Source: Geobacteraceae bacterium (lineage in GTDB: Bacteria > Desulfobacterota > Desulfuromonadia > Geobacterales > Pseudopelobacteraceae). Taken from it: DNA of 64,000 bases. A program made the translations under genes and the position numbers. The notes below the pieces were generated by a model. That model had not been told where the DNA came from and did not search any database. It saw only the letters and a program-made list of their open reading frames with translations. The stretch lies in NCBI GenBank assembly GCA_036732725.1, contig DAINBV010000012.1, forward strand, positions 13,524-77,523, given 5' to 3'. This document shows positions 40,886 to 63,428 of the stretch, piece after piece. Each line of letters opens with the position of its first letter. Position 1 is the first letter of the stretch.

Positions 40886-43662
<2,777 letters not shown>

Positions 43663-43784: not shown

Positions 43785-44741
43785 ATGCTGACATCCCGAA
43801 GCCATGACACCATGCACACCCCAACCGTCGACATTGTAGTTCCTGTCTGGAACAACCCCTTTGAAACCCGCGCCTGCCTGGCCGCTCTGCTGGAACACTC
43901 ACCAGACGCCCGCCTGATAATCGTTGCCAATGGAAGCAGCCGTGAAACGGAACTGATGCTGGAAGAATTTTCCGAAGCATTGGGAGAGCGCGGACTTTTC
44001 CTGATATCCGATCGCAATCTCGGCCTGGTTGCCGCGCTCAACCGCGGACTGGCCCGCTCCGACAGCGACCTTGCCATCATTGTTCACCCCATGACACTCG
44101 TCTCTACCGGCTGGCTGCAATGCTTGTTGACAGCTGCAGAGGCGCCCCAGGCCGGCATAGTTACCCCGATCTTTCACGGTGACGGCATGCCCCAGGTCAC
44201 ACCGCCGGTTAAGGGGTGCAGCCAGATGGAGACCTGTTCACTCTCATTTTCAGCACTGCTGTTGCAGGGAACGATGCGCATGCTGATCGGTGGTTTTGAT
44301 GAGGGGTTGGATGGAGGAGAATGGTGCCTGGCCGATTACCGGCGACGGGGAGAGCAGGCCGGCTATCACAGTTACGTCACAGCAAAGGTCAACCTGTACT
44401 GCCGGGGGGATCAAAGTTTTGGCTTTGGCTCACTGCAACGCCGGCAGCAACAACGTGAAGCAAGCTCTCTCATATGCCAGCAACGGTGGGGGACAACCGA
44501 GGAACTGTGCCTCTATCCCGGAAAACAGGCCACGCCGGAGGAAATTGAAAAGCTGATCGAACAGGCACTGCCGGCCGCCCGGCAGGGAAACACGGTTATC
44601 CTGCTGCTGCACTGGCAGCAACATCGGGAGTGCTGCAAACGCGGCTGGCATGGGGTGCATACCGGCATTATCCTCTCCCGTCTCCCCCTGATCGGCGCAC
44701 GGGATGCGCTCAAGCGAATCACTACCACCCCCACGCTCTGA
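43785..44741 (+). CDS. Family-2 glycosyltransferase
   Basis: VDIVVPVWNN...CL.ALL....D.RLIIV.NGS...T and N.G...A.N.G motifs of GT2. Start uncertain (43785 or 43812; no clear RBS). Confidence 0.75.
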   Translation: MLTSRSHDTMHTPTVDIVVPVWNNPFETRACLAALLEHSPDARLIIVANGSSRETELMLEEFSEALGERGLFLISDRNLGLVAALNRGLARSDSDLAIIVHPMTLVSTGWLQCLLTAAEAPQAGIVTPIFHGDGMPQVTPPVKGCSQMETCSLSFSALLLQGTMRMLIGGFDEGLDGGEWCLADYRRRGEQAGYHSYVTAKVNLYCRGDQSFGFGSLQRRQQQREASSLICQQRWGTTEELCLYPGKQATPEEIEKLIEQALPAARQGNTVILLLHWQQHRECCKRGWHGVHTGIILSRLPLIGARDALKRITTTPTL

Positions 44742-44853
44742 TTATTACATTTTTGCGTACATGCTTCGCGACAGATCCTGGCACAACCATGAAAATATTG
44801 CATAGCTGCCACAATTAGTCATGTAACAAATTATCATCATTACACATTGCATT

Positions 44854-44869
44854 TGGCATTATCTGTGCT
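44854..44869 (+). promoter_or_regulatory. Candidate sigma-54 (-24/-12) promoter of the pilin-like operon
   Basis: TGGCATTATCTGTGCT: GG (44855-56) and GC (44867-68) are separated by exactly 10 nt (consensus TGGCAC-N5-TTGCW). It lies about 93 nt upstream of ATG 44962. Confidence 0.35.
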
Positions 44870-44961
44870 TACACTATCTACGCTTGTCACCATAAAGCTG
44901 AAACCATCCCGTTTGATCTGCAGACAAATCATTACGGACGATTCATTTTATAGAGGTTGAA

Positions 44962-45438
44962 ATGCATTCCATGACTACTCAAAAAAGCATCAATACAACG
45001 GCAAAGCCAAAAACAAAAGGTTTTACGTTGATAGAATTACTGGTAGCGCTGGTTATTGTCAGCATCAGTTTCATGGCCATCCTTCCTTTGCTCTGGAATA
45101 CCATGAATGTGAACAAAACAACGGATCTTGGAGTAAAGGCTCGGGATTATGCCACTCAAAAAGTTGAAGATTTAATGTCCAGATCCCGTGGAGAAATTGA
45201 CCCTCTTGTAGACAATACAGATAGAGAATTTAAAAGCAGTGGAGAGTACCTGTCTCTAAAAGGTGATGTGCTTACTTCTATAACTGACCCAAATAAAGTT
45301 TTTACACGTACTTGGGGCATAAAAGAAGTTCCAGGTGTTACTGTTGACCCCAAACCGGTAATTTTTACGTGTGTAGTCTCGTATACCTACAAAGGCCAAA
45401 CTCGAACAAGGTCGTTTAGCACCTTGTGGAGCTTCTGA
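44962..45438 (+). CDS. pilV: Type IV minor pilin, PilV-like (prepilin-type N-terminal cleavage/methylation domain)
   Basis: KTKG/FTLIELLVALVIVSISFMAILPLL: class III signal with Gly-1, Phe+1, Glu+5. The leader of 17-20 aa is unusually long. Confidence 0.75.
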   Translation: MHSMTTQKSINTTAKPKTKGFTLIELLVALVIVSISFMAILPLLWNTMNVNKTTDLGVKARDYATQKVEDLMSRSRGEIDPLVDNTDREFKSSGEYLSLKGDVLTSITDPNKVFTRTWGIKEVPGVTVDPKPVIFTCVVSYTYKGQTRTRSFSTLWSF

Positions 45439-46640
45439 TGTGTAAATCAAAGCGACTAAACAATTTAGGCTTCACGTTGATTGAGGTGATTATATCGCTG
45501 GCGTTCTTTGGCTTGCTCATGGGTGCCGTATATTCAACCTTTGGCATTATTGGTGATCAAGTAGCTAAAACTAGTACAGAAAATTTACTATCAGACAAAG
45601 GCCAGCGAATTTTAGCGTTCATGGAAGAAGACCTACGCATGATCGGACACCTGTTGCCAACAGAAGCACAAATTCCTATTTGCACGACCAACACACCACC
45701 TGGTTCAGCTTCCACCAATTCCAATCTGATAACATTTCAAAAAGGTACCGTTCCTTCCAACGCTAAGGATCCGGGTCCATATGATAAATTTACGTTTATT
45801 ACATCGGAACCGGTTCGCATTAAAGAAAACACCACATCATGCATGACAGGTCAAAAAGATGCCGCAGGAACCATCCGCAGCGATTATTATTTGTCCACGA
45901 TAGGAACAAACCAAAGATGTTCAAATGATGACACCATCAATTGTAATGATGATACAGCATGTGGTGCGGGTACATGTCAGATCCTTGCCAAGGTAGAGGT
46001 TGATGCAGGCTCTACTTGCTACGAGGATGAAATTGCAGCTGTCAGTGGTTCTGCCAATGGGCGCTCCTTTGTTACCTTTGAATTCGCAGACAAAGTGTTT
46101 TATTCACTAAAATCCATCGGAAATATCCTAACGGTGAATGAATCGCCAGACCGGCGTATCCAGGACAATGCTACCGTGTACAGCGTACGTCAGTACAGCT
46201 ACCAAGTTGATACAACAGGTGGTAAACGGAATTTACGTCGCATCGGCTGGGATACGGATTGTGCAACAGCAGGCGACATGATTTCCAATCTGATCACAAC
46301 GGCAGACACAGCAAATAAAGCTGGCGGAGTAGATGCTTTACAATTTGAGTTTACCAGTTATGACCAAAACGCTACCACCGCCAGCCAGTTAATTAATACA
46401 ACAAAAGCAGTTCCGGAACCATCAAACCTGCGATACATAAAGATATGGTTACTGTTGAGAGCTGATAAGGCGGACAAAAACTATATAAATACCGATACCT
46501 ATACGCTTGGCACGACAACATCCGGCTACTATGCTGACGGTTCAACACCGATCATAAAAGGTCCCTACAACGACAGCTACCGCAGAGTCCTTGTAAGTAA
46601 AATCGTGGAGGTAAGGAATCTTGCGCCCATATCGCATTAA
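45438..46640 (+). CDS. pilW: Type IV minor pilin, PilW-like, enlarged (about 400 aa)
   Basis: MCKSKRLNNLG/FTLIEVIISLAFFGLLMGAVYSTF prepilin signal. The ATG overlaps the upstream TGA (TGATG). Typical PilW proteins are smaller. Cys-rich insert at aa 161-200. Confidence 0.7.
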   Translation: MCKSKRLNNLGFTLIEVIISLAFFGLLMGAVYSTFGIIGDQVAKTSTENLLSDKGQRILAFMEEDLRMIGHLLPTEAQIPICTTNTPPGSASTNSNLITFQKGTVPSNAKDPGPYDKFTFITSEPVRIKENTTSCMTGQKDAAGTIRSDYYLSTIGTNQRCSNDDTINCNDDTACGAGTCQILAKVEVDAGSTCYEDEIAAVSGSANGRSFVTFEFADKVFYSLKSIGNILTVNESPDRRIQDNATVYSVRQYSYQVDTTGGKRNLRRIGWDTDCATAGDMISNLITTADTANKAGGVDALQFEFTSYDQNATTASQLINTTKAVPEPSNLRYIKIWLLLRADKADKNYINTDTYTLGTTTSGYYADGSTPIIKGPYNDSYRRVLVSKIVEVRNLAPISH

Positions 46641-47247
46641 AAACATTATTGATAATCAGCAGGGGATTGCCCTTATTTCAGCCCTACTGATTACACTTCT
46701 GTTGACACTTGTTGTTGTTGCACTTTCTTACCGGGTTGGAATGCTCAGCCTTGGAGCGCGAGACCATGTTATCAAAAGCCAGAGTATCTATACTGCGGAA
46801 GTAGGCCTAAACAAGGCACGCTATTTCCTCCACGCAGGTGATTGTGACCCGGGTAAGTTTGAAGCCTGTATCCCTGGGCTCAACTACAATTCTTTTGTCA
46901 ACATCTCAACTGCTATCAAAGGTGTTTTTACAACAGCCACCAAACCGGGAAAAATTACGCTTGGTGGTGTTGACTTTGACTATGACAGTCCCGGTTCTCT
47001 CTCTGCTGACCTCAATACTTCCAACTACACTGTCTATGCAAAACGAAGTAATCTGGGGAAAGTGATCCATATCATGGCCGTTTCCTCACGACCTGGTTCA
47101 AAAGAGGGCGATATGACTCAGACTATTATTGATGCCGGGTTGTTGTATGACGATGAATGCAACGATTCAAAACAAAAAGGCGGAAGTGCTGCGCGAAAAG
47201 GAAAATATTGTAGCGATGTAACATCACTTACTGCGGCTAACAGATAG
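46621..47247 (+). CDS. pilX: PilX-like minor pilin (PilX N-terminal domain)
   Basis: NQQGIALISALLITLLLTLVVVALS...IYTAEVGLNKARYFL matches the PilX_N pattern (QxG-A-L, no Phe+1). TTG start with GGAGG RBS; 20-nt overlap with the upstream gene. Confidence 0.65.
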   Translation: MRPYRIKNIIDNQQGIALISALLITLLLTLVVVALSYRVGMLSLGARDHVIKSQSIYTAEVGLNKARYFLHAGDCDPGKFEACIPGLNYNSFVNISTAIKGVFTTATKPGKITLGGVDFDYDSPGSLSADLNTSNYTVYAKRSNLGKVIHIMAVSSRPGSKEGDMTQTIIDAGLLYDDECNDSKQKGGSAARKGKYCSDVTSLTAANR

Positions 47248-47257
47248 GAGGAGAATC

Positions 47258-50200
47258 ATGAATTTTATAGGTAACAAATTACGCATACTGGCTATTGCAA
47301 CAATAGCATTGCTCGTATCAGTTATTCCCTCATTGGCAACGGACAGAACCTTCAGCACCGGATCATATATTATCTCCGCTGATTCTTGCTGGCAACCAAA
47401 TGGAGATACAAAGAACACAACCAATGCCATTGGCTGTGACACAAATACGAATGATCAGTCGATTTTTCAGGTATACGGCTTATTATACGCTTTGCTAGAC
47501 ACCGGCGACCAACCTGACAAATGCGAAAATAATGATGGTTCCATGCCACAACAAAAAGCCATGCTCGGGTATTGCAAACAAGTCAAAGTATACTGGGTAA
47601 TAAAAGCCGACAAGGCATCACCACATGATGTGGATTTACAGTTAACAACCATTGATACTGCCATAAATCCGATTGTATCGATCTATAATAGCGCAAAAAC
47701 AGGAGCCGGCAATTCAACGCAGGCGGTAAATTACCGCGGTGGCCCATTTGTCATTGATGCCAATGGTATAACAGACGCAGAGTTTGCCACTATTAAAACA
47801 AAATTTCCCGCAGTAAAGATCCATAAAGCAAATATAGGCTTTTCGGGTAATGTCGATAAGGTTTTGATTGGGAAACCACCTAAAATTGGTGTGTTGAGCG
47901 AGGGCAATAGTGATGTTCTTGAGGATTATATTCGTGCAGCAGGACAATTTGCCTGGAAAGGAGTTGTTTTCCAGTATGTCGGTGCGCGGGATATTATCGC
48001 CGGATGTCTACAAGATCCTATTCCTGCCACTTGCCTAGCCAGAAATGCAACCAAAGCGAATGCTAATAAAATTACCGTGCCATTTCAATTGCTCTGGGCA
48101 CCGCATTGGGAAATTGAGAACAAGTGGACTGGCGAAAGCACAACACCATCTGCTGCAGACCAAACATCTGTCGTTGCCGAAATCAGGGCTTTCCTTGAAA
48201 GGGGTAATTCAGGATTCTTTGAATGTGCCTCAATCGGTAGTTTGGAAGCGTCGCATTCGGTTACAGATATTGGGATGAGTGTTTCAGCCGGCACGGGGGG
48301 ATTTCTTGTTTCAAACACAAAAACAGTACCCCGCCTTGAAGTAAACAAGGGCTGTTTTAAAGGCTACAACAACCCAAACTCAAAAGACTGTACCAGCAAT
48401 TATATCGTGCCGGAGGCAGTACCGTTTTGGCTGACACAATGTGGCGGATGGGACTACAAGCCGACAAGTGGCCTGATAGATAGTATGCGCCCAGTGTATA
48501 ACACTACAACACCGGCGAACTCCTATACTTATTTAACAACCAAAATGGCAAACGATTCGGGTACAACTGTGGATGACCGATATGTCGGCACACAGATGAC
48601 ACGTTTTCTCCATGATGATTCTACCAAGCTGAACACCGCTTACACCGATGGTACTGATCATTATCACGTATATGACTATCTAGTCGGCGGTAGAATTAAC
48701 GGGTCGCCCACCCAGGGATACCTGATTTATTTCCCTGGCCATAAATATATTTCCTGCAAGAACAGCACAACATTTGCGTATCCGCCGTCACGTACACTTG
48801 AAATTTCATTCGACGCCATAACTCCTGTAAAGGATCCCCTGTTGAGCGGCATCGTTCCTGAAAATAGCATCATATATGCCGAGATTGTACATGCAAATTG
48901 TACACAAGGAAGCACCTGTCCCAAAATCAGTTATAATTTGACGACCAAATCAGGAACAAGATCAGCAGACACCTGGGTTGACGCAAGTGCTGAATTTGCT
49001 ACCTACAACACCGTAACAAACAAGCTGGAAGGGGTCTTTTTTACCAGTGCATTTGCCGAAGCAACTCTAACCTCACTTTTGGTAAGTGATATTTATGTGA
49101 CCTATGATAGCAATACAAATAATACAAAACTGTCAAGTATCGTTGATGTGACAGATGCATCTGCAACAATCACGCTGTGCACACCTCCGTCCCCCGGAGA
49201 TAGTACGACGCCATCATCTGTAACAGTCAACTGTTCATCAAGTGGTGTCGTACCGAACTCCATCAATTTACAATTTGATGGCAACGTTGATGTTGGAACC
49301 CGTCTGATCAATATAACCGCAAAAACCAGCACCGGTTCTGCTGTCGGAACCTATGACTTGTCAACCAACACCGGATCAGGCGCTACAAGTGCGGGAGGAG
49401 TTACCCTTGATTTAAGTACCGCAAGCTATGATGCACTTGCCTTTACGTTAAAAAATGTAAAAATGTACCCGACAGCAAGCTGTGCAGCTGTTAGTTTAAC
49501 AGATTTTAGTGCTGATTTTCCCGGCGGGTCAACCAAACTAACGCAGGTAACCAATACAACCACCAGTAAGACACTCTGTTCACCTGGTGTTACCTCGCCG
49601 GCCAGCTGTACTTCGGTGGCTGCAACGTCATCAGCCGGAACGATTACTATCGCAACGGAGCTTCAATTCAAAGAACGCTATGTTGATGATTACCTTAAAA
49701 ATACAGCCAGTGACTCTGAAATCACACTGTCAATAAAATACAGCTGCGGCAGCGGTTGCAGTGGAACAGTTAGTAATAAATATAAGCCAAAAACCACAAA
49801 CACAGGTAATCCGACTGGAAACTTGACCGATACTGATACATATCTTCGTATTGATTCAAGAACCGCATATTTTGGTACAGGTGACAACAGATACATTCTG
49901 AAAGATATTTTTCTGACTAATAAAAATTCTTCCAAGACGGTTACGATAACTGAAGTAAGTGTGACCTTTGCGGATCATAAGGAAGGCAGTATTTTTACTA
50001 CTCAGAAGTTATATAAGTTGCGCGATACGACGAACAATGCGGATATTGTTTCTGATAGCAACGGAAAAGCATCAGTAGCGTCCTGGACCGGTAAAAGCTA
50101 TGAAATCAAGAACGGCTCAAGTGGCGGTGGTTCAACCACTTGGAGCTATAGCATGAGTGCCGGGACATGCAATTACTATCTTGGTCCTTATTTAAGTTAT

Positions 50201-52387
50201 TGCGATATTAACTGGTCAGGTTCAAATACCTGCGGTGTGAAATATGTTCTTAATACATTTTTGGCTCTCAAGTATCAATCAACAACAGCAGAATTTTCAA
50301 AAACCCAACCACTTCTAAAAGATGGCATTGTCTATTCCAGCAGTTTTGATTACCCCAGTTATCGCGGGCATCTTAAGATGAAGAAATTGCCGACAGGCTC
50401 TCAAACAGCTACAACGCTTGTATGGGATGCGGCTTCCGCCATGCCAACAGCGGGTACGAGTGGATTTCCGTCTGCTCCTTTGAGCTCTACCGATACAAGT
50501 TCGCCTCGCTATATTTTCACAAACCTGCCTGATGCTGTGCCCGACTCATCGACCGGTTTTATTACGCCAATCAAATTTGATCCTGTCTCTTTTGCAGCGC
50601 TTGACAGTACCACCAAGGCCTCATTTAAAACGGCTATTCAGGCTAGTTCTGATAACGATGCCAAGGTAACCATCAATACGGTACGAGGTAGAAAAAATGC
50701 ATCAACACAGGATATTTACACCGGAACTGCAAATTGTAGCACCGGCACAGCTGACGGTACTATTGACACAGATGGTTGCGCAGAAGATTCAAAGCGTTTG
50801 TGGGCAATAGAGAACTCTACACCGGTGTTAAAAGTCAAATCTAAACATATAGAAGCGACTACAACGACTGCCATAACCACTGGGCGAGACCGTCGGGATC
50901 GATTCCTGTTTGTTGGTGCTGATGATGGCATGTTGCACGCTTTCTGGGCAGGCTCATTCAACGCAACGACACAGAGTTATCCTGATACCGCTTCTGGCAA
51001 AGGTACTGGCAAAGAGACATGGGCATATATCCCGTCAGCTCTACTTAGTAATTTAAAAAATCAGCCATTTAACCCAGATCCTGCCAATGAAAGCTCTTTT
51101 GAGCCAAAAGTAAAAGTCGATGGTTCGCCAGCCATGAATGATTTTCTATACTGTGCTGCAAAAGATCTGGTCGGCAATTGCAGTTCATGGAAATGGCGAA
51201 CCATTCTGGTAGGAACAGCTACTGACAATACGGTTAACAAGGGAATTGTTTTTGCTTTGGATGTTTCCGATCCATATTCTCCAAAGATCATGTGGGAAAA
51301 AACATACAACAAAACATCCGACTCTACCTGTAAGGGAACGTCAAGAAACTGTAATATGGGATACTCAAAAGGCGTTGCGATCGGTACAGCACAGATTGGT
51401 ACCGAAATGAAAGACTACGTCTTTTTAACATCCAGTTGGATCTATAAGAAAAAAGCTATTGTTGATGGTTCAGGCAAGACGACCGGCTATTCACTTTGCA
51501 CCACCGATACCACTGGTTGTACGTTTGGAATTAGTGGCTATGCGCTGGATATTTTTACCGGTGACGTAAAATGGGAAACGTCTTTACCTTATACAGCCGA
51601 TTCCGTAAACATCAATGATCCACCCGCCTCTCCTGCGCTTATGGATCGCGATAACAATGGTACTGTTGACTATGCAATTTTTGGAGATATGCAGGGTAGA
51701 TTGTGGGCATTACGAACAACTGATGGCACAAACCTCACTGGAGCAAATCCGGTATACCAAATTAAAAAACTTGATGCCACTACCGGTAAAGATACGACTG
51801 TAAATGCAAACTCATCCGAGCCAATTGCTGCGCCGGTAGCAATCAGTAAAGATTTGATAGTACTTGCAACCGGTGGAGCTGATTATGCTCTTGATACTCA
51901 AAAATATCGTGTCGAAGTAGTGCGTTTAAGTAATACGGGCGCAACGAAAGATAAAGACAGTAGTGGTAATGACATGATGACCGTAATTACTGATGCCGGT
52001 GAAAAAATTTGGGCGCAACCGGCAATAGCTAACAATAATAAAGTTCTTATAGGTACTGCAAAAAGCTATTACTCGAATCAGACGGTATCTTCATTACAGA
52101 GTACCGGTAGAATTATCCAGATCAACTTGAGAGAAACTCGCGCTGCTGGTACGACGTCGAATGTCAAGTATGCTGGAGGTACAAATACCGCTGATCAATG
52201 GTTTACTGGCGGCTTTGTTGGCGGTTTTGACCTTGATAAGGGGCAGGCTGTGATCGGAACACTCAAACCCTCAAAAGATTCTTCAGGCACAACTACAGAC
52301 ATGATCCTATTAGGTGAAATAAGTACAACAAGTGGCGCAACTGGCAAGGTGAATCCCTACAAAATTTTGTGGTGGAGAAAATTGTGA
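47258..52387 (+). CDS. pilY1: Giant (1709 aa) PilY1-like pilus-tip protein: signal peptide, about 1000 aa uncharacterised N-terminal region, C-terminal PilY1/PilC beta-propeller with Ca-binding loop
   Basis: Strong RBS AGGAGGAG and signal peptide ...VIPSLA/TD. The C-terminal hallmark motifs are RFLFVGADDGMLHAFWAGS, VDGSPAMNDF, WRTILVGTA, GIVFALDVSDP, and DRDNNGTVDYAIFGDMQGRLWAL. Confidence 0.8.
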   Translation: MNFIGNKLRILAIATIALLVSVIPSLATDRTFSTGSYIISADSCWQPNGDTKNTTNAIGCDTNTNDQSIFQVYGLLYALLDTGDQPDKCENNDGSMPQQKAMLGYCKQVKVYWVIKADKASPHDVDLQLTTIDTAINPIVSIYNSAKTGAGNSTQAVNYRGGPFVIDANGITDAEFATIKTKFPAVKIHKANIGFSGNVDKVLIGKPPKIGVLSEGNSDVLEDYIRAAGQFAWKGVVFQYVGARDIIAGCLQDPIPATCLARNATKANANKITVPFQLLWAPHWEIENKWTGESTTPSAADQTSVVAEIRAFLERGNSGFFECASIGSLEASHSVTDIGMSVSAGTGGFLVSNTKTVPRLEVNKGCFKGYNNPNSKDCTSNYIVPEAVPFWLTQCGGWDYKPTSGLIDSMRPVYNTTTPANSYTYLTTKMANDSGTTVDDRYVGTQMTRFLHDDSTKLNTAYTDGTDHYHVYDYLVGGRINGSPTQGYLIYFPGHKYISCKNSTTFAYPPSRTLEISFDAITPVKDPLLSGIVPENSIIYAEIVHANCTQGSTCPKISYNLTTKSGTRSADTWVDASAEFATYNTVTNKLEGVFFTSAFAEATLTSLLVSDIYVTYDSNTNNTKLSSIVDVTDASATITLCTPPSPGDSTTPSSVTVNCSSSGVVPNSINLQFDGNVDVGTRLINITAKTSTGSAVGTYDLSTNTGSGATSAGGVTLDLSTASYDALAFTLKNVKMYPTASCAAVSLTDFSADFPGGSTKLTQVTNTTTSKTLCSPGVTSPASCTSVAATSSAGTITIATELQFKERYVDDYLKNTASDSEITLSIKYSCGSGCSGTVSNKYKPKTTNTGNPTGNLTDTDTYLRIDSRTAYFGTGDNRYILKDIFLTNKNSSKTVTITEVSVTFADHKEGSIFTTQKLYKLRDTTNNADIVSDSNGKASVASWTGKSYEIKNGSSGGGSTTWSYSMSAGTCNYYLGPYLSYCDINWSGSNTCGVKYVLNTFLALKYQSTTAEFSKTQPLLKDGIVYSSSFDYPSYRGHLKMKKLPTGSQTATTLVWDAASAMPTAGTSGFPSAPLSSTDTSSPRYIFTNLPDAVPDSSTGFITPIKFDPVSFAALDSTTKASFKTAIQASSDNDAKVTINTVRGRKNASTQDIYTGTANCSTGTADGTIDTDGCAEDSKRLWAIENSTPVLKVKSKHIEATTTTAITTGRDRRDRFLFVGADDGMLHAFWAGSFNATTQSYPDTASGKGTGKETWAYIPSALLSNLKNQPFNPDPANESSFEPKVKVDGSPAMNDFLYCAAKDLVGNCSSWKWRTILVGTATDNTVNKGIVFALDVSDPYSPKIMWEKTYNKTSDSTCKGTSRNCNMGYSKGVAIGTAQIGTEMKDYVFLTSSWIYKKKAIVDGSGKTTGYSLCTTDTTGCTFGISGYALDIFTGDVKWETSLPYTADSVNINDPPASPALMDRDNNGTVDYAIFGDMQGRLWALRTTDGTNLTGANPVYQIKKLDATTGKDTTVNANSSEPIAAPVAISKDLIVLATGGADYALDTQKYRVEVVRLSNTGATKDKDSSGNDMMTVITDAGEKIWAQPAIANNNKVLIGTAKSYYSNQTVSSLQSTGRIIQINLRETRAAGTTSNVKYAGGTNTADQWFTGGFVGGFDLDKGQAVIGTLKPSKDSSGTTTDMILLGEISTTSGATGKVNPYKILWWRKL

Positions 52388-53076
52388 GAAACATAAACGG
52401 ATTTACATTGGTAGAATTGCTGGTAGTAATTGCCATCATGGCTATTGTGGCTGGTTTAGCTTCGCCGCCTTTGCTTGAGATGTACCGAAAAAGCAAAATA
52501 GAGGATCGTGCCAGTACATTACAAGAAACGTTTAAATGGGCTCAGGTTCAGGCTGTTAAACGAGGTGAGGCAGAAATCAATACCGATCCTGCAAAGTGTA
52601 CCGATGCGACTCGAACCGATGGGACAGGCGCTATCATAAAACAAAAATATTATATAGCCTTAAACCCCACAACCAATGCATACAAGATCGTACAATGGCG
52701 CGATGCAAACTGCAATAATCTCAAAGAGGATACAACAACACCGAGCGAGTTTTCCGTTCTTCAGGAAGGCTCGCTCGGTGAGTCGTACTTTGGTATTACC
52801 GGTACAGTGAATCTGACCGCTTGTGACAATGCAGGGACAAGAACATCTGGTTCAGGAGTAATGCCTAATTTTACCGCGTCTACTTGTCCAAGCGGGATAG
52901 CAATTTTTAGCGGATATCAATGTTCAAGCCTTAACGGCAAAGGGTTCGTAGATGCGATGAAATATTCAGCCGCGTATATTACAAATGGAAAAGCCAACTA
53001 TGCCGTTGCACTAAATCCTGCTGGCATTACAACGCTTTGTCTCTGGAATGGTACTGGTTGGCAATTTGTACGTTAA
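52369..53076 (+). CDS. GspH/FimT-family pseudopilin (type IV minor pilin)
   Basis: NING/FTLVELLVVIAIMAIVAGLA prepilin signal, followed by a FimT/GspH-like segment (ASTLQETFKWAQVQAVKRGE). Start is GTG at 52369 or at 52384; the latter makes a GTGA overlap with the pilY1-like stop. Confidence 0.7.
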   Translation: MVEKIVRNINGFTLVELLVVIAIMAIVAGLASPPLLEMYRKSKIEDRASTLQETFKWAQVQAVKRGEAEINTDPAKCTDATRTDGTGAIIKQKYYIALNPTTNAYKIVQWRDANCNNLKEDTTTPSEFSVLQEGSLGESYFGITGTVNLTACDNAGTRTSGSGVMPNFTASTCPSGIAIFSGYQCSSLNGKGFVDAMKYSAAYITNGKANYAVALNPAGITTLCLWNGTGWQFVR

Positions 53077-53153
53077 ATTTGAAACCGCCTGAAGCAATGA
53101 CCGCCTATTCAAAAACGTTCCGTATGCATATATGAGCTGTATTTGTAAAGAAA

Positions 53154-55538
53154 TTACCCCCGCAAGCTGACCACCGTAGCACCATCACGCCCTTCATAGG
53201 CATCCCCTGGCCGGCAGGAATCGACCAGGGGATGCCGCTCCAGAAATTCCCGCACCGCATCACGCAAGCGCCCCGTGCCGAGTCCATGAATCACCCGAAC
53301 TTCACGCATTCCCGCAAGTGCCGCCTGATTGAGAAACGGCTCCAGCCGCTCCAGCGCCTCATCAACCCGCAAGCCGATCAGCTTGATCTCGCGGGCATCA
53401 CTCTCCCCCGCATCCAACTGCCAGCCACGGCTATTGCTCGGCTGTGGGGCACTTCTTTTTTTCTTCTCCGGCACAGCCTTAGATGGCGCCGACAGATCGG
53501 CCAGCGTGACCTCAAGCTCCATGCGCCCTGCCCTGACACGAACCTTCCCCTGTTTTTCCTGTTGCTGTACCACCACCCCGCTACAATTGAGCGAACGGAT
53601 AAAAACCGCATCTCCCGGTTTGACAACGGTAAGCGGCGTTTGATCCCGCTCCTGTTCCTGACGGGGGGTAAGCTCTTCCGCCAACTGCTGCTGGGCGGAG
53701 CGCAACCGATCAACAGTCTCAGCCCGATGTTCCCGCTTGTACTCCTCCAGCAGTTCGTTCATCTGACGACGACTGGAGGCAATCAACTCGCGGGCCTCCT
53801 GCCACCCTTTTTCCCTCGCCTCGCGGCGTGCTGTTTCGATGCTAGCGGCACGTTCTTCCACATCACGCCGGGCAACGGCCAGTTCATGCTGCTGCCGTTC
53901 CAGATCTCTGGCGCTGCTGGCCAGTTCGTCCCGTTTGCGGTGTAGCTCCGCCAGCAAGGCGGTAAACTCTTCCCCGGCCGAACCGAGCAACTGACGGGCA
54001 TAGGCGATTACCCGCTCGGGCATCCCATAACGCACGGCAATGTCAATGGCATGGGAATGCCCCGGTTCACCGCTGATCAAACGGTACAGCGGGGTGTAAC
54101 TGGCAGCATCGTATTCCATGCCGGCATTGATCATGCCGGGAGAGCGATGCACAAAACCGATGATTTCCGACAAATGGGTTGTGGCAACCACCAACGCCCC
54201 GTTATTCTTCAACTCATGCAGTACACTGCAGGCGATGGCTGCCCCCTGGTGCGGTTCGGTTCCCGCCCCCAGTTCATCCAGCAGCACCAACGACCTCCCG
54301 CCGGCCTGGCCGATGATTTTGGCCACCCGCGCCACATGGGCCGAAAACGTGGAGAGACTCTGTTCGATCGATTGCTCGTCACCAATATCAACCAACAGAG
54401 TATCCAGGAGCGGAAAGACCGACCGGGCACCGTTGGCGGGAACCGGCAGACCGCACAGCGCCATGACCGTCAGGATACCGGCGGTTTTAAGGGCAATGGT
54501 TTTACCACCGGCATTGGGACCGGTAATCACCATCACTCTCCCCGCTTCCCCCAACTGCAAATTGAGCTGTTCCACCTGTGGCAATATTTTCTGGCGCTGG
54601 AGCATCAACAACTGGGGATGGCGCGCTCCATCCAACAGCAGCTCGGCTGAATCCCGAACCTGCGCGTTTTCCAAACCGTACTGATCGGCAAAGAGAGCTA
54701 CCGAAGCAAGATAATCAACAGTCACCAAGGTTTCAAAACAGCCGTTGATGGCATCACTATCCTCCCGCAGCCAGGCGGAAAGTTGGCGCAATATCCTGAT
54801 TTCCTCGCTCTTTTCCTCAGCCGCCAGATTTTCCAGTTCATTGACAAAGGGGATAATTTCCAACGGCTCCATAAAGGCGGTTTCACCGGATGAGGAGACA
54901 TCATGCACCACCCCCTTGACCATACCTTTAGAATCCATTCGTACCGGAATGACCCAGCGGCCGCCCCGTTGGGTGATAAAGTCTTCCTGTAGAAAGATTT
55001 CAATATCGTTGGCACGCACGATTTCCTCGATCTTCTTGCGAATCCGGGCCGCCAGGGAGCGCTTTGCCCGGCGGATTTCCTTAAGTGCCGAAGAAGCGCC
55101 GTCTTTGATGCTCCCATCGCTATCAATGGAGGCAATCAACGGTTCCAGCAGATCCGCAAAGGGGATCAGCGCCGGTTCCAGCGCTTTCAGCAGCGGCAGG
55201 TCGTTGCGCGGGGTAAGCTGGCGGTGGAGTGAGGCAAACAGTTGCAACGGTGGAATAAAGGTCAGCAATTCATGCGTGGTCAGCAATGCGCCCTGGGGGC
55301 GCAGCCGCTCCAACAGCGGCCGGATATCATCAAACTGCTCCAGCCGCAGGGCGATTCCGAGACGTGCCAGACCACGCAGTTCCGCAATCCGGCCACTTAC
55401 TCGTTCTATCTCTTCGACCATGTGGTACGGGATGGTTGCCAGCAGCCGCTCGGCGGTCACATCGCTGTGGCACTGTCCGGCGATGGCATGCAATATTTTA
55501 TCAAATTCAAGCCGTTTCAGGGTTTCCTGATCTATCAT
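53154..55538 (-). CDS. mutS2: Endonuclease MutS2 (MutS domain + C-terminal Smr)
   Basis: Walker [16 protein letters not shown], long coiled coil, KOW-like region. C-terminal Smr domain ([10 protein letters not shown]...[13 protein letters not shown]). Confidence 0.9.
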
Positions 55539-55888
55539 GATTCCTTCTGGCTGCTGCGCCGTCGCCGGCGAGCCTTCTGTTTTTTTAGTTTTTCAATCCG
55601 TTTCATTTCCGGTGTCACAATTCCCTGCAAAGCTTCCAGCTGTTCCAGCAGCTGGCGGCGCGCCAGGAAACGATTGATCGACTGACTCCGCTCCCGCGAG
55701 GCACTGACGGTGATACCGCTCGGAATGTGGGTCAATTGTACGCAGGTGGAGGTCTTGTTGACATGCTGGCCGCCATTGCCGGATGAACGGACAAAGACCT
55801 CCTTGAGATCCTCCTCCCGCACCTCCAGCTCAGCCATCTTATGCGACAGCCAGCGGTTTTTTTCATCACTTACGGCAAACTCAGGCAT
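55535..55888 (-). CDS. Small GGQ-motif class-I release-factor-domain protein (ArfB / mtRF-R-like) with basic C-terminal tail
   Basis: [41 protein letters not shown] is an RF-1 (GGQ) domain. The tail is [21 protein letters not shown] 55888 has RBS GGGGGAGA, and the stop overlaps the mutS2 start (ATGA). Confidence 0.75.
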
Positions 55889-56019
55889 GCGATCTCCCCC
55901 GATGCCGTTCTGCTGACGGCGGGCCACTCTACACAACAGCACATTTTTTTCCAACCACATTCAGCGTTGTCGAAGCCGGGCGGACATGGTATGTTTGCCC
56001 CTATCATATTTTAGCAAGG

Positions 56020-56682
56020 ATGTCGACTGTGCATGCTTCATTTCTGCAACGTTTCTGGGTCACCTTTTCCTGCCATGTCGTTGGTTTCTATGCATCCACA
56101 CTCAATCATTTCCGATCCAAGGGAGCGGAGCATATCCCGTCCCACGGCGGCGTGCTGTTTACCTCCAATCACATATCCGCCTACGAAACCATATTTCTCC
56201 CCTGGGCGGTGATCAGACACCATCCGCTGCAGATGCTCTGGGCTCCGGCCAAGGAAGAGCTGTTTACCAACACGTTCCAGCGACTGATCTACTCATCATG
56301 GGGCGCCTTTCCGGTGCGCCGCAAGCGGGACATGAAGGCCAACCGGACCATTAACGACCTGTTGCGCGATCAGAAGGTCATGCTGTTCCCTGAAGGGACA
56401 CGTCACAAGGATGGCCGGCTCGGACCGGGAAACCGGGGGGTGGGGAAAATCATCTACGACACCCGCCCGACGGTTATCCCGACCGCCCTGGTCGGGCTGA
56501 ATCACTGGAAATTCCCCGGTTTCGGGCAGCAGGCGCTGGTTCGTTTCGGTACTCCGCTTGATTTCAGCGATCTGTACCAGTTGGAAGATTGCAAGGAAAC
56601 TCATATTTTGATTGTGTCACGAGTCATGGAGGCGATTGCCGCGCTCCTGAAAGAAGAGGGGGCGTACTGTGGGGAAATCTGA
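56020..56682 (+). CDS. plsC: 1-acyl-sn-glycerol-3-phosphate (lysophospholipid) acyltransferase family protein
   Basis: Acyltransferase block I NHISAYE (an HX4D variant with E), and block [13 protein letters not shown]. Start is ATG 56020 or GTG 56029. Confidence 0.75.
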
Positions 56683-57112
56683 TCAGGTGGAGATATTCTC
56701 CGACGGTGCCTGTAGCGGCAATCCGGGACCCGGAGGTTATGGGGCGATACTCCGCTGTTGCGGCAAGGAAAAGGAGTTGAGCGGCGGCGCGGCGCTGACC
56801 ACCAATAACCGGATGGAACTGTCGGGAGTAATCGAGGCGCTGCGGTGCCTGACCCGCCCCTGCCGCGTAACCGTAACCACCGATTCCCAGTATGTGGTCA
56901 AAGGGATGACGGAATGGATTAGCGGTTGGCAACGTAAGGGGTGGCAGAACAGCAAGAAGGAACCGGTGGTGAACCGCGATCTGTGGGAAGCGTTGCTGGA
57001 AGCAGCACGCCCCCACACCATCTCCTGGAACTGGGTACGCGGGCATGCCGGACATGCCGAAAACGAGCGCTGCGACCAGCTGGCACGGGAAGCAATACCA
57101 AGCGGAAAATAA
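56669..57112 (+). CDS. rnhA: Ribonuclease HI
   Basis: [32 protein letters not shown] and [15 protein letters not shown] motifs. GTG start with GAGGGGG RBS; overlaps the plsC end by 14 nt. Confidence 0.9.
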
Positions 57113-57203
57113 GTAGTTCTCACGCTATTGCTTGACGCTTGTGGCTCATTCGCTTAAAATCCCACAATTCGCACAAATTCAGATTCGGGAGAACCGTGAT
57201 CCA

Positions 57204-58583
57204 ATGAAGCAGATAGTTGCCATCATCCTTGCAGCGGGTAAGGGCACCCGCATGAAATCCAACCTTGCCAAGGTGCTGCACCCGCTGGCAGGTCAGCCGA
57301 TGCTGTCCTGGCCGCTTTCAGTGGCACGCGCCAGCGGGGCCACCAGAACCGTGGTGGTAGTGGGACATCAGGCGGAGAGTGTCAGCAACTATTGTGCTTC
57401 CTATGCCGACGTAGCGACGGCAATCCAGGAGCAGCAACTGGGAACCGGTCATGCGGTGGCATCCGCCCGTCAGGCATTTGCCGAGCATCAGGGGACAGTG
57501 CTGATCCTGTGTGGTGACACCCCGCTCCTGACCACAGCCACCATCGCCAAACTGCTGGAGATCCATCGCGAACAGCGGGCTGTTCTGTCGGTACTCACCG
57601 CCACCATGCCCGACCCTACCGGCTATGGGCGCATTGTGCGGGATCAGGCCGGTCATGTTGCCCGGATCGTTGAGCAGAAAGACGCCACCCCGGCCGAGCG
57701 CGAAATTGCTGAAATCAACAGCGGCATCTACTGCATGGAAGCTGATTTCCTGCGTGACAACATCGATTCTCTTGACAACAACAACTCCCAGGGGGAGTTT
57801 TACCTGACCGACCTGGTATCGCTTGCCATTGCCAAGGGACACACCTGTTGCGCTCTCTGCAGCGATGATGCCGATGAAATCATGGGGGTCAATGACCGGC
57901 TTCAACTGGCACAAGCCGGCAGCATCCTGCGTCAGCGCATCAACCGCAACCACCTGCTGGCCGGCGTGACACTGGTTGATCCCGCCACCACCTACATTGA
58001 CGCCGGTGCAACCATCGGCAACGACACCACCATAGCCCCCAACTGTCATATCAGCGCCGATACGGTGATCGGCAGCGGCTGCAACATTGAAACCGGGGTC
58101 GTGATCACCAGTTGCACCATTGGCGACGGTTGCCATATCAAGGCCGGTTCGATCCTGGAAGGTTCGACGATCCACCGTCAGGTTGCCATTGGCCCCATGG
58201 CGCACCTGCGACCTGGTACGGTGCTGCACGATCACGTCAAGATCGGCAACTTTGTGGAAACCAAAAAGATTGTTATGGCAGCCGGTTCAAAGGCATCGCA
58301 CCTGACCTATCTGGGGGATGCGGAGATCGGATCCCAGGTCAATATCGGTTGCGGAACCATTACCTGCAATTACGATGGTGTCAATAAACACAAGACCGTG
58401 ATCGGCGACGATGTATTCATCGGCAGCGATGTACAACTGGTGGCGCCAGTGACCATCGGCCGCAATTCGCTGGTTGCAGCCGGAACCACCGTAACGGTTG
58501 ACGTTCCGCCCGACTCACTGGCCCTTTCCCGGGTACCGCAAATCAACAAAGAGGGATGGCGCTTGAAACAGAAGGGGAAATGA
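57204..58583 (+). CDS. glmU: Bifunctional UDP-N-acetylglucosamine pyrophosphorylase / glucosamine-1-phosphate N-acetyltransferase
   Basis: LAAGKGTRMKS, and a left-handed beta-helix of hexapeptide repeats. C-terminal NYDG..K..T.IGD.VF.GS. I prefer ATG 57204 (MKQIVAIILAAG). Confidence 0.95.
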   Translation: MKQIVAIILAAGKGTRMKSNLAKVLHPLAGQPMLSWPLSVARASGATRTVVVVGHQAESVSNYCASYADVATAIQEQQLGTGHAVASARQAFAEHQGTVLILCGDTPLLTTATIAKLLEIHREQRAVLSVLTATMPDPTGYGRIVRDQAGHVARIVEQKDATPAEREIAEINSGIYCMEADFLRDNIDSLDNNNSQGEFYLTDLVSLAIAKGHTCCALCSDDADEIMGVNDRLQLAQAGSILRQRINRNHLLAGVTLVDPATTYIDAGATIGNDTTIAPNCHISADTVIGSGCNIETGVVITSCTIGDGCHIKAGSILEGSTIHRQVAIGPMAHLRPGTVLHDHVKIGNFVETKKIVMAAGSKASHLTYLGDAEIGSQVNIGCGTITCNYDGVNKHKTVIGDDVFIGSDVQLVAPVTIGRNSLVAAGTTVTVDVPPDSLALSRVPQINKEGWRLKQKGK

Positions 58584-60709: not shown

Positions 60710-60715
60710 CTCCGC

Positions 60716-61471
60716 CTACCTTAACTGTAATACCCGCCGACTGGTTTTCGCACAGAGCTCCGCCACCAACTCCCGTTCAACCCCCTTGATCTCCGCAATT
60801 GCTTGAACCGTCTCCACCAGCCAGGCCGGTTGATTGGGAAGCCCCCGGTATCTCCGGGGTGGCAGATCCGGTGCATCGGTTTCGACCACCAGACACTCCA
60901 AGGGCAATTCCCGGACGAGACGAGCAGGACGCCAGGCATTATCACGGGTAATGCTGGCGGCAATTGAAATCACGAAATTGAGCTTGATAAACTCCCGCGC
61001 CATTTCCAGGGAACCGGAATAGGCGTGCATGATTCCCCCCACCCGATCCCCCTGTTCTTCCTTCAAAATCTGCAGCGTGCGCTGAAATGCGTGACGGCAA
61101 TGGATCAAAACCGGTTTACGGTGCAGAACCGCCAGTCGCAATTGCCGGCGAAAGGCAGTTTCCTGCAGCTCCAGCGAAACCTGGTAGGAAGGATCAAGAC
61201 CGATTTCACCGACCGCAACGCAGGATGACATTCGATCCGCTAGACACTCCAGTACATGATCATTGAGACAATCGCTGTGCATCGGATGCACGCCATAGGC
61301 CGGCATGACGCCCTCATACCGGGCAGCTACTGCGGCAATCCGATCCCAATGATCGGGATGCACCCCCGGCACCACAAACTGCGTCACCCCGGCAGCACGG
61401 GCATCGGCCATGATGGTCGCCAGACGTGATTGAAGCGGCTCAAGGTCGAGGTGGCAATGGGTATCAATCAT
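60716..61471 (-). CDS. TatD-family metal-dependent hydrolase (DNase)
   Basis: MIDTHCHLD N-terminal metal site, IGEIGLD, IHCR, and DAP motifs. Confidence 0.9.
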   Translation of the reverse strand: MIDTHCHLDLEPLQSRLATIMADARAAGVTQFVVPGVHPDHWDRIAAVAARYEGVMPAYGVHPMHSDCLNDHVLECLADRMSSCVAVGEIGLDPSYQVSLELQETAFRRQLRLAVLHRKPVLIHCRHAFQRTLQILKEEQGDRVGGIMHAYSGSLEMAREFIKLNFVISIAASITRDNAWRPARLVRELPLECLVVETDAPDLPPRRYRGLPNQPAWLVETVQAIAEIKGVERELVAELCAKTSRRVLQLR

Positions 61472-61474
61472 GAT

Positions 61475-63400: not shown

Positions 63401-63428
63401 GCTATTCTTAACACAGGAGGGTTTAGTA

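What the first reader, a model, noticed from the sequence alone, without database searches (positions are those of the whole stretch)
47258..52387. 1709-aa PilY1-like protein: only the C-terminal ~680 aa carry PilY1 motifs
From about aa 1030 to 1709 I recognise the PilY1/PilC propeller signature motifs: FVGADDGMLHAF, VDGSPAMNDF, WRTILVGT, FALDVSDP. In the first ~1000 aa after the signal peptide I recognise no canonical domain. There is no vWA MIDAS DxSxS motif, which is the usual PilY1 N-terminal module. That region is Thr/Ser/Asn-rich with many paired cysteines (for example CWQPNGDTKNTTNAIGC, CSCGSGC, CNYYLGPYLSYC), consistent with a disulfide-stabilised extracellular adhesin or sensor of novel architecture. 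At 1709 aa it is much larger than P. aeruginosa PilY1 (about 1160 aa).
Basis: partly seen in the sequence, partly recalled or inferred. Interest (0 to 1): 0.75.

Follow-up and report, generated by a model that had tools for sequence, protein, structure and literature searches.

The report
PilY1 pilus-tip protein, undescribed head domain
This is a real type IV pilus tip protein (PilY1) whose N-terminal 1000 residues form a glutamine-amidotransferase-like domain with three repeated beta-sandwich modules inserted into it, a head type not yet described for PilY1 but shared by hundreds of other bacterial surface proteins.

Summary
The 1709-aa ORF is real and is a PilY1. It has a C-terminal PilY1 propeller (Pfam above threshold; PDB 3hx6), a calcium-site motif, a signal peptide, and sits in a pilV-pilW-pilX-pilY1-fimU-like operon.

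The N-terminal ~1000 aa match no Pfam, NCBIfam or PDB sequence and are neither vWA nor DUF4114. They do resolve into two parts:
- **Domain A** (aa 28-505 plus helix ~986-1005) is a confident alpha/beta domain. Its only structural relatives are class I glutamine-amidotransferase-like folds, and the similarity is weak.
- **B1-B3** (aa 508-954) are three homologous beta-sandwich repeats, nested inside domain A before its last helix.

Domain A is a large unannotated family (801 clusters). About half are fused to PilY1 propellers (Geobacterales, Nitrospirota); the rest are in Myxococcota surface proteins. H283, E322, C323 and H495 are near-universally conserved and lost together, and C323 lies at a nucleophile-elbow position. 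That suggests a catalytic or metal site.

The whole five-gene cassette is a low-GC island. It replaced a host-like cassette still present at the same locus in a close relative.

Verdict: a new variant of a known kind, of moderate interest.

The parts
47258..47338 (+). Signal peptide (aa 1-27, MNFIGNKLRILAIATIALLVSVIPSLA|TD), Sec type I and not a prepilin leader
   Evidence: Read directly from the translation. Domain A starts at about aa 25-45 in nearly all family members. No signal-peptide predictor was available.
47339..48772 (+). Domain A, N-terminal part (aa 28-505): alpha/beta domain with a class I glutamine-amidotransferase-like fold. Conserved K119, D126, Y159, G161, H189, H283, E322, C323, E330, H495
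   Evidence: AF2 domain-only model: pLDDT 87.8, pTM 0.89. Foldseek hits: GH42 beta-galactosidases, STM3548 2gk3, lin1909 3fij, IFT52N 5fmr, SpuA 7d53, and a viral 'Type 1 glutamine amidotransferase'. Conservation.
48104..48106 (+). Codon of H283 (WAPHW motif), directly after strand 278-282
48221..48226 (+). Codons of E322-C323 (FFECAS). C323 lies between strand 318-322 and helix 324-330, a nucleophile-elbow position
   Evidence: Conserved in 94-96% of 152 family members with no conserved partner Cys. Secondary structure. Lost together with H283 and H495.
48740..48742 (+). Codon of H495 (PGHKY), three residues after the last strand of domain A (488-492)
48779..49207 (+). Beta-sandwich repeat B1 (aa 508-650)
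   Evidence: All-beta in the model. Homologous to B2 and B3: hhalign probability 99.5-99.9%, E 1e-22 to 1e-34.
49217..49624 (+). Beta-sandwich repeat B2 (aa 654-789)
   Evidence: Absent from the ~1270-aa homologues.
49622..50119 (+). Beta-sandwich repeat B3 (aa 789-954)
   Evidence: Absent from the ~1270-aa homologues.
50150..50272 (+). Cys-rich loop (C971, C982, C992) and the C-terminal helix of domain A (aa ~986-1005, NTCGVKYVLNTFLALKY), separated from the rest of domain A by the B1-B3 insertion
   Evidence: Helix 991-1001 in the model. In family members without B repeats this helix follows the GHxY motif after a median of 14-18 aa. The gap rises to 182, 330 and 472 aa with 1, 2 and 3 repeats.
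50273..52387 (+). PilY1 C-terminal beta-propeller region (aa ~1006-1709) plus stop codon; conserved tail NPYKILWWRKL
   Evidence: PF05567 at aa 1208-1487. 3hx6 PilY1 at E 1.4e-6 with the single sequence and 4.8e-19 with the family profile. Conserved in all PilY1-type homologues.
51644..51670 (+). EF-hand-like calcium-site motif DRDNNGTVD (aa 1463-1471)
   Evidence: Regex match. Aligned to the DNNSDGVAD stretch of P. aeruginosa PilY1 3hx6. Motif definition Dx[DN]xDGxxD from PMC8833165; here position 5 is N.
44962..45438 (+). pilV-like minor pilin (158 aa)
   Evidence: N_methyl and TIGR02523 PilV N-terminus. Syntenic in 13 of the 18 PilY1-type loci.
45426..46640 (+). pilW minor pilin (404 aa)
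   Evidence: PF16074 PilW plus N_methyl. Synteny.
46621..47247 (+). pilX minor pilin (208 aa)
   Evidence: PF14341 PilX_N. Synteny.
52384..53076 (+). fimU/GspH-like minor pilin (230 aa). Its GTG start overlaps the PilY1 stop codon (GTGA)
   Evidence: N_methyl and TIGR01708 GspH-like. Gene call, sequence, synteny.
44742..53153 (.). Compositional island equal to the whole minor-pilin/pilY1 cassette with its flanking intergenic regions
   Evidence: GC3 is 0.37-0.42 for all cassette genes and 0.60-0.68 for the flanks. Identity to close relative L082 is 93.6% nt over 53154-63602, then collapses to 42-68% aa inside the cassette.
44854..44869 (+). Sigma-54-type promoter-like element TGGCAT-N5-GTGCT, 93 nt upstream of pilV
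   Evidence: The only match in the 64-kb window, 0.57 expected across the whole window on both strands. Candidate only.

Best explanation
The gene encodes a PilY1-family protein of a type IVa pilus. SHOWN: (1) It has a Sec-type signal peptide. (2) Its C-terminal beta-propeller is of the PilY1 type and carries the calcium-site motif. (3) It lies in a translationally coupled pilV-pilW-pilX-pilY1-fimU-like operon that is conserved as a unit in Geobacterales and Nitrospirota. (4) Its N-terminal 1000 residues form an alpha/beta domain of class I glutamine-amidotransferase-like fold (domain A). (5) Three homologous beta-sandwich modules (B1-B3) are inserted into domain A between its last strand/His motif and its last helix. 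(6) Domain A belongs to a large extracellular domain family that has no annotation. INFERRED from what is established for PilY1 proteins (PMC8833165, PMC13190605): the propeller docks onto the four minor pilins, primes pilus assembly and rides to the pilus tip, and the calcium site modulates this. Domain A with its B arm is then the outward-facing head that makes contact with the surface or substrate. The B modules vary in copy number (0-3) and diverge fastest, so they are probably the exposed, adaptable arm. Domain A carries the conserved functional site, formed by H283, E322, C323 and H495. These sit at the C-terminal ends of consecutive strands, where the active site lies in this fold. My favoured reading (about 40%) is a Cys-His catalytic centre (hydrolase or transferase type, substrate unknown). 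A metal-binding site is second (about 25%).
For: PilY1 identity: PF05567 above the gathering score; 3hx6 at E 4.8e-19 with the family profile; motif-by-motif alignment including the Ca loop; operon context; synteny of the five-gene cassette in the loci long enough to show it, among L002-L019. Architecture: AF2 models with pLDDT 81.7/pTM 0.74 (aa 1-1040) and pLDDT 87.8/pTM 0.89 (aa 28-505). Foldseek top hits all belong to one fold class: GH42 middle domain, STM3548, lin1909, IFT52N, SpuA and a viral type 1 GATase. PMC4818760 and PMC13432705 tie these to the class I glutamine amidotransferase fold. No vWA hit appears. Repeats: hhalign probability 99.5-99.9%. Nested insertion: the GHxY-to-helix gap is 14, 182, 330 and 472 aa for 0, 1, 2 and 3 repeats. 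Family: 801 representatives, 430 at E<=1e-10. Functional site: C323 is 94-96% conserved without a conserved partner Cys; H189, H283, E330 and H495 are also conserved in PilY1-fused and non-PilY1 members alike. H283, E322, C323 and H495 are lost together in four members, and one member has C323S. C323 lies between a strand and a helix. Faster divergence of B: A/B/C identity is 69/41/55% to the closest relative, and B is the lowest of the three in every locus that has it.
Against: The fold similarity is weak: best E 8.5e-4 (PDB) and 2.5e-4 (viral), and TM about 0.45 even when normalised to the small targets. No sequence-profile link to any GATase1 family was found. I had no model coordinates, so the spatial clustering of H283, E322, C323 and H495 is inferred from secondary-structure positions and co-variation, not measured. 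Nothing shows pilus-tip localisation, adhesion or any activity. For Geobacter there is a published view, recalled from memory, that type IV pili act mainly in secretion inside the envelope. If that holds, an outward-facing head would need another rationale.
Confidence: 0.75

Rival explanations
1. Domain A is a non-catalytic binding or scaffold module, like other inactive members of the glutamine-amidotransferase-like fold (IFT52 GIFT domain, GH42 middle domain). The conserved His/Cys/Glu cluster is then a structural or regulatory metal site (for example Zn) or simply a ligand pocket, and adhesion is carried by the B repeats.
For: The closest structural matches (STM3548, GH42 middle domain, IFT52N) are mostly non-enzymatic or uncharacterised members of the fold (PMC4818760 states that IFT52N lacks catalytic residues). 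A set of two His, one Cys and one Glu is a common metal-ligand set. Many non-PilY1 carriers also contain MopE-type putative metal-binding motifs.
Against: C323 occupies the strand-Cys-helix elbow, and H495 follows the last strand before the C-terminal helix. From general knowledge of the fold, those are the positions of the catalytic Cys and His in active glutamine amidotransferases. One family member has C323S, which keeps a nucleophile but makes a poor metal ligand. The degenerate members lose all four residues together, the usual pattern of pseudo-enzymes.
Confidence: 0.35
2. The protein works only inside the cell envelope, as the priming plug of a secretion-type pseudopilus, and is never displayed on a surface pilus. 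The large N-terminal region would then serve periplasmic or outer-membrane interactions rather than adhesion.
For: Minor pilins and PilY1 prime assembly inside the machine (PMC8833165). The downstream pilin scores best against GspH-type models. A secretion role has been proposed for Geobacter pili (from memory, not checked here).
Against: The same domain A occurs in Myxococcota proteins with DUF11, Ig-like, TIG and MopE repeats, and in one example inspected, a C-terminal GCGC...RRGRRRR tail that I recognise from memory as a cell-surface sorting tail. That architecture is typical of surface-exposed proteins. Variable-copy, fast-diverging B repeats and whole-cassette replacement are the pattern expected of an exposed structure under diversifying pressure.
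Confidence: 0.12
3. The long ORF is an assembly or annotation artefact that joins an unrelated N-terminal gene to a PilY1 gene.
For: None beyond the unusual length and the lack of annotation for the first 1000 aa.
Against: Collinear full-length homologues occur in more than 30 independent assemblies and in one isolate genome. The identical protein is recorded on two contigs. Domain A is split by the B insert, and its last helix lies immediately before the propeller, so the parts are structurally interlocked. Composition is uniform along the gene.
Confidence: 0.01

Closest known systems
PilY1 / PilC family of type IVa pilus tip and priming proteins (P. aeruginosa PilY1, PDB 3hx6; Neisseria PilC; M. 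xanthus PilY1.1-1.3)
   Same: C-terminal PilY1 beta-propeller with the signature motifs and the EF-hand-like Ca loop; Sec signal peptide; encoded with four minor pilins in one operon; cysteine-rich, large and variable N-terminal region.
   Different: The N-terminal region is neither the vWFA/MIDAS type (P. aeruginosa, M. xanthus PilY1.3) nor the DUF4114 type (M. xanthus PilY1.1/1.2), which are the only two N-terminal domain types described so far (PMC13190605). It is a GATase1-like domain with nested beta-sandwich repeats.
Class I glutamine amidotransferase-like fold: STM3548 (2gk3), lin1909 (3fij), GH42 beta-galactosidase middle domain, IFT52/GldG GIFT domain (5fmr), SpuA (7d53)
   Same: Overall alpha/beta fold by Foldseek (probability up to 0.96). 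A cysteine lies at the strand-to-helix elbow, and a histidine follows the last strand ahead of a C-terminal helix, as in active members.
   Different: About twice the size (478 aa against about 220-250), with several large insertions. No detectable sequence-profile similarity. Extracellular rather than cytoplasmic. No Glu two residues after the His. Carries a three-domain insertion before the last helix.
Myxococcota surface proteins with the same N-terminal domain (for example Archangium L048, 1328 aa; Minicystis rosea L078, 850 aa)
   Same: Homologous domain A directly after the signal peptide, with the same conserved K, D, Y, H, H, E, C, E, H set.
   Different: No PilY1 propeller, no B repeats and no pilin neighbours. 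Domain A is followed instead by DUF11, Big_13, TIG or MopE-type repeats, and in the one example inspected (L035) by a C-terminal sorting-type tail.
Alternative minor-pilin sets of P. aeruginosa pilin groups (Giltner et al. 2011, as cited in PMC11841053) and the 'phylogenetically distinct pilY1 in the same location' of G. metallireducens (PMC2700814)
   Same: Replacement of the minor-pilin/PilY1 set as a unit at a fixed chromosomal locus between related strains.
   Different: Here the breakpoint is mapped to the end of mutS2, and the incoming cassette is marked by a GC3 about 0.25 lower than the host's.

Membership tests
PilY1/PilC family (type IVa pilus) | C-terminal PilY1 beta-propeller domain (Pfam PF05567; structure 3hx6) | tested here: met
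   PF05567 at 35.8 bits against a cut-off of 28.1, aa 1208-1487. 3hx6 at E 1.4e-6 with the single sequence and 4.8e-19 with the profile.
PilY1/PilC family (type IVa pilus) | Encoded together with minor pilins (fimU/pilV/pilW/pilX type) | tested here: met
   PilV-like, PilW (PF16074), PilX_N and a GspH/FimU-like pilin flank the gene on the same strand with overlapping or near-abutting ends. The order is conserved in the related PilY1-type loci long enough to show it.
PilY1/PilC family (type IVa pilus) | Type I (Sec) signal peptide, not a prepilin leader | tested here: inconclusive
   The N-terminus reads as a classical signal peptide (K/R n-region, hydrophobic core, SLA|T) and has no GFxxxE motif. 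No predictor was available.
PilY1/PilC family (type IVa pilus) | EF-hand-like calcium-binding loop Dx[DN]xDGxxD in the propeller | tested here: met
   DRDNNGTVD at aa 1463-1471, aligned to the Ca loop of 3hx6. Position 5 is N instead of D; all liganding positions are D or N.
PilY1/PilC family (type IVa pilus) | Location in the priming complex and at the pilus tip; required for piliation | not testable with these tools
   Needs genetics and microscopy.
vWFA-type PilY1 N-terminal domain (P. aeruginosa, M. xanthus PilY1.3) | von Willebrand A fold with a MIDAS DxSxS motif | tested here: not met
   No DxSxS. No vWA family in Pfam even at E<=10. No vWA or integrin I-domain among the top 50 Foldseek hits listed.
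DUF4114-type PilY1 N-terminal domain (M. xanthus PilY1.1/1.2) | Pfam DUF4114 domain | tested here: not met
   No hit in the Pfam scans of the whole protein or of its segments.
Class I glutamine amidotransferase-like fold | Fold-level similarity to solved members | tested here: inconclusive
   The top hits are consistent but weak: 2gk3 probability 0.93-0.96 with TM 0.47-0.48 (target-normalised); GH42 E 8.5e-4; 3fij TM 0.45; 5fmr TM 0.40; viral 'Type 1 glutamine amidotransferase' TM 0.39.
Class I glutamine amidotransferase-like fold | Catalytic Cys at the nucleophile elbow (strand-Cys-helix) | tested here: met
   C323 lies between strand 318-322 and helix 324-330 in both models and is conserved in 94-96% of the family. 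Whether it is catalytic was not tested.
Class I glutamine amidotransferase-like fold | Catalytic His (and Glu) after the last strand, superposable on known triads | tested here: inconclusive
   H495 follows the last strand and precedes the C-terminal helix, and co-varies with C323. There is no Glu at +2, and no coordinates were available for superposition.
Class I glutamine amidotransferase-like fold | Sequence-profile similarity to a GATase1-type family | tested here: not met
   No Pfam or PDB profile hit. hhalign against PabA and DJ-1 gave probability 0.1% (both probe sequences were recalled from memory).

The most novel reading that the evidence does not exclude
Domain A is an active extracellular Cys-His enzyme (C323 nucleophile, H495 base, H283 and E322 assisting) displayed on the tip of a type IV pilus. 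The pilus would then carry out chemistry on what it touches, for example cleaving or covalently capturing a matrix, cell-wall or mineral-associated substrate, rather than only sticking to it. The same catalytic head is used on non-pilus surface proteins in Myxococcota.
Probability: 0.3. Interest if true: 0.8.

Novelty: new variant of a known kind. Interest (0 to 1): 0.45.

Why it matters
PilY1 proteins decide what a type IV pilus touches and senses, yet only two N-terminal head types (vWFA and DUF4114) have been described. This locus defines a third, widespread head type in environmental Geobacterales and Nitrospirota. It has a clear domain grammar: a GATase1-like domain with 0-3 nested beta-sandwich repeats. 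It also has a four-residue conserved centre that can be tested by mutagenesis. If the centre is catalytic or metal-binding, that would give a new function to pilus tips in metal-reducing and sediment bacteria. The same domain in hundreds of Myxococcota surface proteins would gain a first functional handle. The mapped same-locus replacement of the whole tip-complex cassette shows that these heads are exchanged as modules.

Tried and rejected
- **Sequence searches of aa 28-965.** Pfam, NCBIfam and PDB sequence or profile searches found nothing, even at E<=10.
- **vWA/MIDAS hypothesis.** Rejected: no motif, no profile hit and no fold hit.
- **BLAST self-comparison for repeats.** It found nothing. 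The repeats appeared only with profiles built from homologues.
- **Word-indexed profile search with the domain A alignment.** It returned only 8 proteins. The exhaustive search was needed.
- **hhalign of domain A against PabA and DJ-1** (sequences recalled from memory). Probability 0.1%, so there is no support at sequence level for equating C323 and H495 with a known triad.
- **Guilt by association in 46 Myxococcota loci.** No conserved neighbour gene.
- **Mobile-element marks at the island borders.** No flanking direct or inverted repeats and no tRNA. Sigma-70 promoter-like and terminator-like counts were at chance level.
- **Assembly artefact.** Rejected.
Full report
**1. Observation**

The ORF at 47258-52387 (+) exists, starts with ATG and encodes 1709 aa. 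A strong ribosome-binding site, AGGAGG, lies 7 nt upstream.

They align with the corresponding motifs of P. aeruginosa PilY1, PDB 3hx6. There is no DxSxS and no RGD.

Pfam recognises only PF05567 (PilY1 beta-propeller), at aa 1208-1487 and above the gathering score. NCBIfam recognises nothing.

Two small corrections apply. 'CSCGSGC' is a misreading of YSCGSGC. The part conserved together with the propeller begins at about aa 965-1006.

**2. Context**

The gene is the fourth of five co-directional genes with overlapping or near-abutting ends (no gap above 10 nt):
- pilV-like (44962-45438)
- pilW (45426-46640)
- pilX (46621-47247)
- pilY1
- a GspH/FimU-like pilin, whose GTG start overlaps the pilY1 stop codon

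This is the standard minor-pilin/PilY1 operon. The window matches a JGI metagenome contig, and the gene calls there agree. The flanking MutS2 places the host in the Geobacterales; the closest named relatives are Pelotalea chapellei and Geobacter spp. at about 68%.

**3. The N-terminal region is not an orphan**

A search with aa 1-1007 found 58 homologues. Most are long proteins of 1150-1730 aa that also carry the PilY1 C-terminal region; a few are shorter, partial sequences. The named ones come from Geomonas paludis ('PilC/PilY family type IV pilus protein'), Trichlorobacter and Nitrospirota/Thermodesulfovibrionales.

Mapping the alignments showed three parts:
- aa ~28-650, present in all homologues
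- aa ~650-965, missing from the ~1270-aa homologues
- aa ~965-1709, conserved again

**4. Structure**

An AlphaFold2 model of aa 1-1040 (49-sequence alignment) has pLDDT 81.7 and pTM 0.74. It shows an alpha/beta domain (aa 28-~500), a long all-beta stretch, and a helix at 991-1001. A domain-only model of aa 28-505 (60 sequences) has pLDDT 87.8 and pTM 0.89.

Foldseek against the PDB gave weak but consistent matches:
- GH42 beta-galactosidases (E 8.5e-4 to 0.04)
- STM3548, 2gk3 (probability 0.93-0.96, TM 0.47-0.48 normalised to the target)
- lin1909, 3fij
- the IFT52 N-terminal GIFT domain, 5fmr
- SpuA, 7d53

The viral library added a giant-virus 'Type 1 glutamine amidotransferase'. PMC4818760 states that IFT52N has the class I glutamine amidotransferase fold and resembles the GH42 B domain and glutaminase PDX2. 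PMC13432705 calls STM3548 a predicted glutamine amidotransferase. No vWA structure appears among the top 50 hits listed.

At sequence-profile level there is no link to any known family. The assignment is therefore fold-level and tentative.

**5. The Ser/Thr-rich middle is three repeats nested inside domain A**

Profiles built from the homologues show that aa 508-650, 654-789 and 789-954 are homologous beta-sandwich modules (hhalign probability 99.5-99.9%, E 1e-22 to 1e-34).

Among PilY1-type relatives the copy number is 0, 1, 2 or 3, in 12, 30, 4 and 37 proteins respectively.

The distance between the GHxY motif (aa 494-497) and the conserved '(V/L)LNT' helix (aa ~997) has a median of 14-18 aa with no repeat. 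It is 182 aa with one repeat, 330 with two and 472 with three. In repeat-less family members the helix follows the His motif directly (consensus lines).

The B array is therefore an insertion inside domain A, just before its last helix. It is not a stalk between the head and the propeller.

**6. A large unannotated domain family**

An exhaustive profile search with domain A found 801 cluster representatives (430 at E<=1e-10). The domain nearly always starts at residue 25-45. Of the 193 proteins held here, 87 carry a PilY1-like C-terminus and 106 do not.

The non-PilY1 carriers are mostly from Myxococcota. There, domain A is followed by DUF11, Big_13, TIG or MopE-type repeats. One example inspected (L035) also ends in a GCGC...RRGRRRR tail, which I recognise from memory as a sorting-type tail. 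They have no pilin neighbours and no conserved neighbour of any kind. Domain A is thus a mobile extracellular head domain.

**7. A conserved centre**

Across 81 PilY1-type and 71 other members, these residues are conserved at 73-100%: K119, D126, Y159, G161, H189, H283, E322, C323, E330 and H495.

C323 is conserved at 94-96% and has no equally conserved partner cysteine. C395 and C500 are conserved only in the PilY1 clade, so they probably form a clade-specific disulfide.

In the models, C323 lies between strand 318-322 and helix 324-330. H283 directly follows strand 278-282. H495 follows the last strand, 488-492.

In four members C323 is replaced by D, and H283, E322 and H495 are replaced as well, while the other conserved residues remain. 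One member has C323S. These four residues therefore behave as one functional unit.

From general knowledge of the fold, the strand-Cys-helix elbow and a His after the last strand are where active glutamine amidotransferases keep their catalytic Cys and His. That is an inference: I could not superpose structures.

**8. Evolution of the locus**

The five-gene cassette keeps its order in the related PilY1-type loci that are long enough to show it, from Geobacteraceae, Nitrospirota/Thermodesulfovibrio and other MAGs. Its flanking genes are not conserved.

Within the protein, the B repeats diverge fastest: A/B/C identity to the closest relative is 69/41/55%, and B is the lowest of the three in every locus that has it.

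In the window, all cassette genes have GC3 of 0.37-0.42, against 0.60-0.68 for every flanking gene tested.

A close relative (L082) matches window 53154-63602 at 93.6% nucleotide identity over 10.45 kb. The identity collapses exactly at the end of mutS2. The relative's cassette sits at the same position, belongs to the same family, is only 42-68% identical in protein, and has host-like GC3 of 0.56-0.65.

So the window's genome replaced its native cassette with a low-GC xenolog at the same locus. No repeats or tRNA genes mark the borders.

Precedents exist. P. aeruginosa pilin groups carry alternative minor-pilin sets (PMC11841053, citing Giltner 2011). [quoted passage not shown]

**9. Interpretation**

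The protein is a PilY1. By analogy with studied PilY1 proteins (PMC8833165, PMC13190605), the propeller binds the minor pilins, primes assembly and ends up at the pilus tip, and the N-terminal region faces outward.

What is new is the head: a GATase1-like domain with a conserved His/Glu/Cys/His centre and a variable arm of 0-3 beta-sandwich modules. PMC13190605 states that, apart from vWFA and DUF4114, no conserved N-terminal domains of PilY1 proteins have been identified. This is therefore a third, undescribed head type, but within a well-known protein family whose N-termini are known to vary.

My estimates for the centre are about 40% catalytic, about 25% metal-binding, and otherwise merely structural. 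None of these was tested.

**10. Verdict**

This is a new variant of a known kind, of moderate interest (0.45). The most novel reading still open is an enzyme displayed on a pilus tip (probability about 0.3).

Noticed in passing
window 44742-53153: The whole minor-pilin/pilY1 cassette is a sharp compositional island (GC3 0.37-0.42 against 0.60-0.68 in the flanks). A close relative (L082, 93.6% nt identity over 53154-63602) carries a divergent, host-GC version of the same cassette at the same locus. This indicates same-locus cassette replacement by horizontal transfer, with the right breakpoint at the end of mutS2.
   Followed up: yes
window 44854-44869 (+): Sigma-54-type promoter-like element TGGCAT-N5-GTGCT, 93 nt upstream of the pilV start. 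It is the only match to TGGCAYN5KTGCW in the 64-kb window (0.57 expected across the whole window, both strands).
   Followed up: partly
L021-L081 (for example L048:7872-11858, L078:7857-10409, L035): Domain A heads stand-alone surface proteins in many Myxococcota, fused to DUF11, Big_13, TIG or MopE-type repeats. The one example inspected (L035) also ends in a GCGC...RRGRRRR sorting-type tail (recognised from memory). These proteins have no pilin genes nearby and no conserved neighbour. The family has 801 cluster representatives and no Pfam model.
   Followed up: partly
L006, L008, L009, L012 against L010, L011: Domain A of some Nitrospirota/Thermodesulfovibrio cassettes is closer to the window's (50-54% identity) than that of some Geobacteraceae cassettes (45-46%). 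This suggests exchange of the cassette between phyla.
   Followed up: partly
P0067 (PilY1-type homologue, 1254 aa): It carries Ser instead of the conserved Cys323 (and Gln for E322) while keeping H283 and H495. This could be a natural nucleophile swap.
   Followed up: no
window 42517-43662 (+): The MreB ORF as listed starts at a TTG that overlaps the stop of the upstream histidine kinase gene. This gives a ~45-aa extension before the MreB profile begins (the match starts at aa 43-48). The true start is probably further downstream.
   Followed up: no
window 40886-42520 (+): A sensor histidine kinase with a Tll0287-like periplasmic domain lies directly upstream of mreB. It is followed by a GT2 glycosyltransferase (43785-44741), which abuts the pilin cassette.
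   Followed up: no
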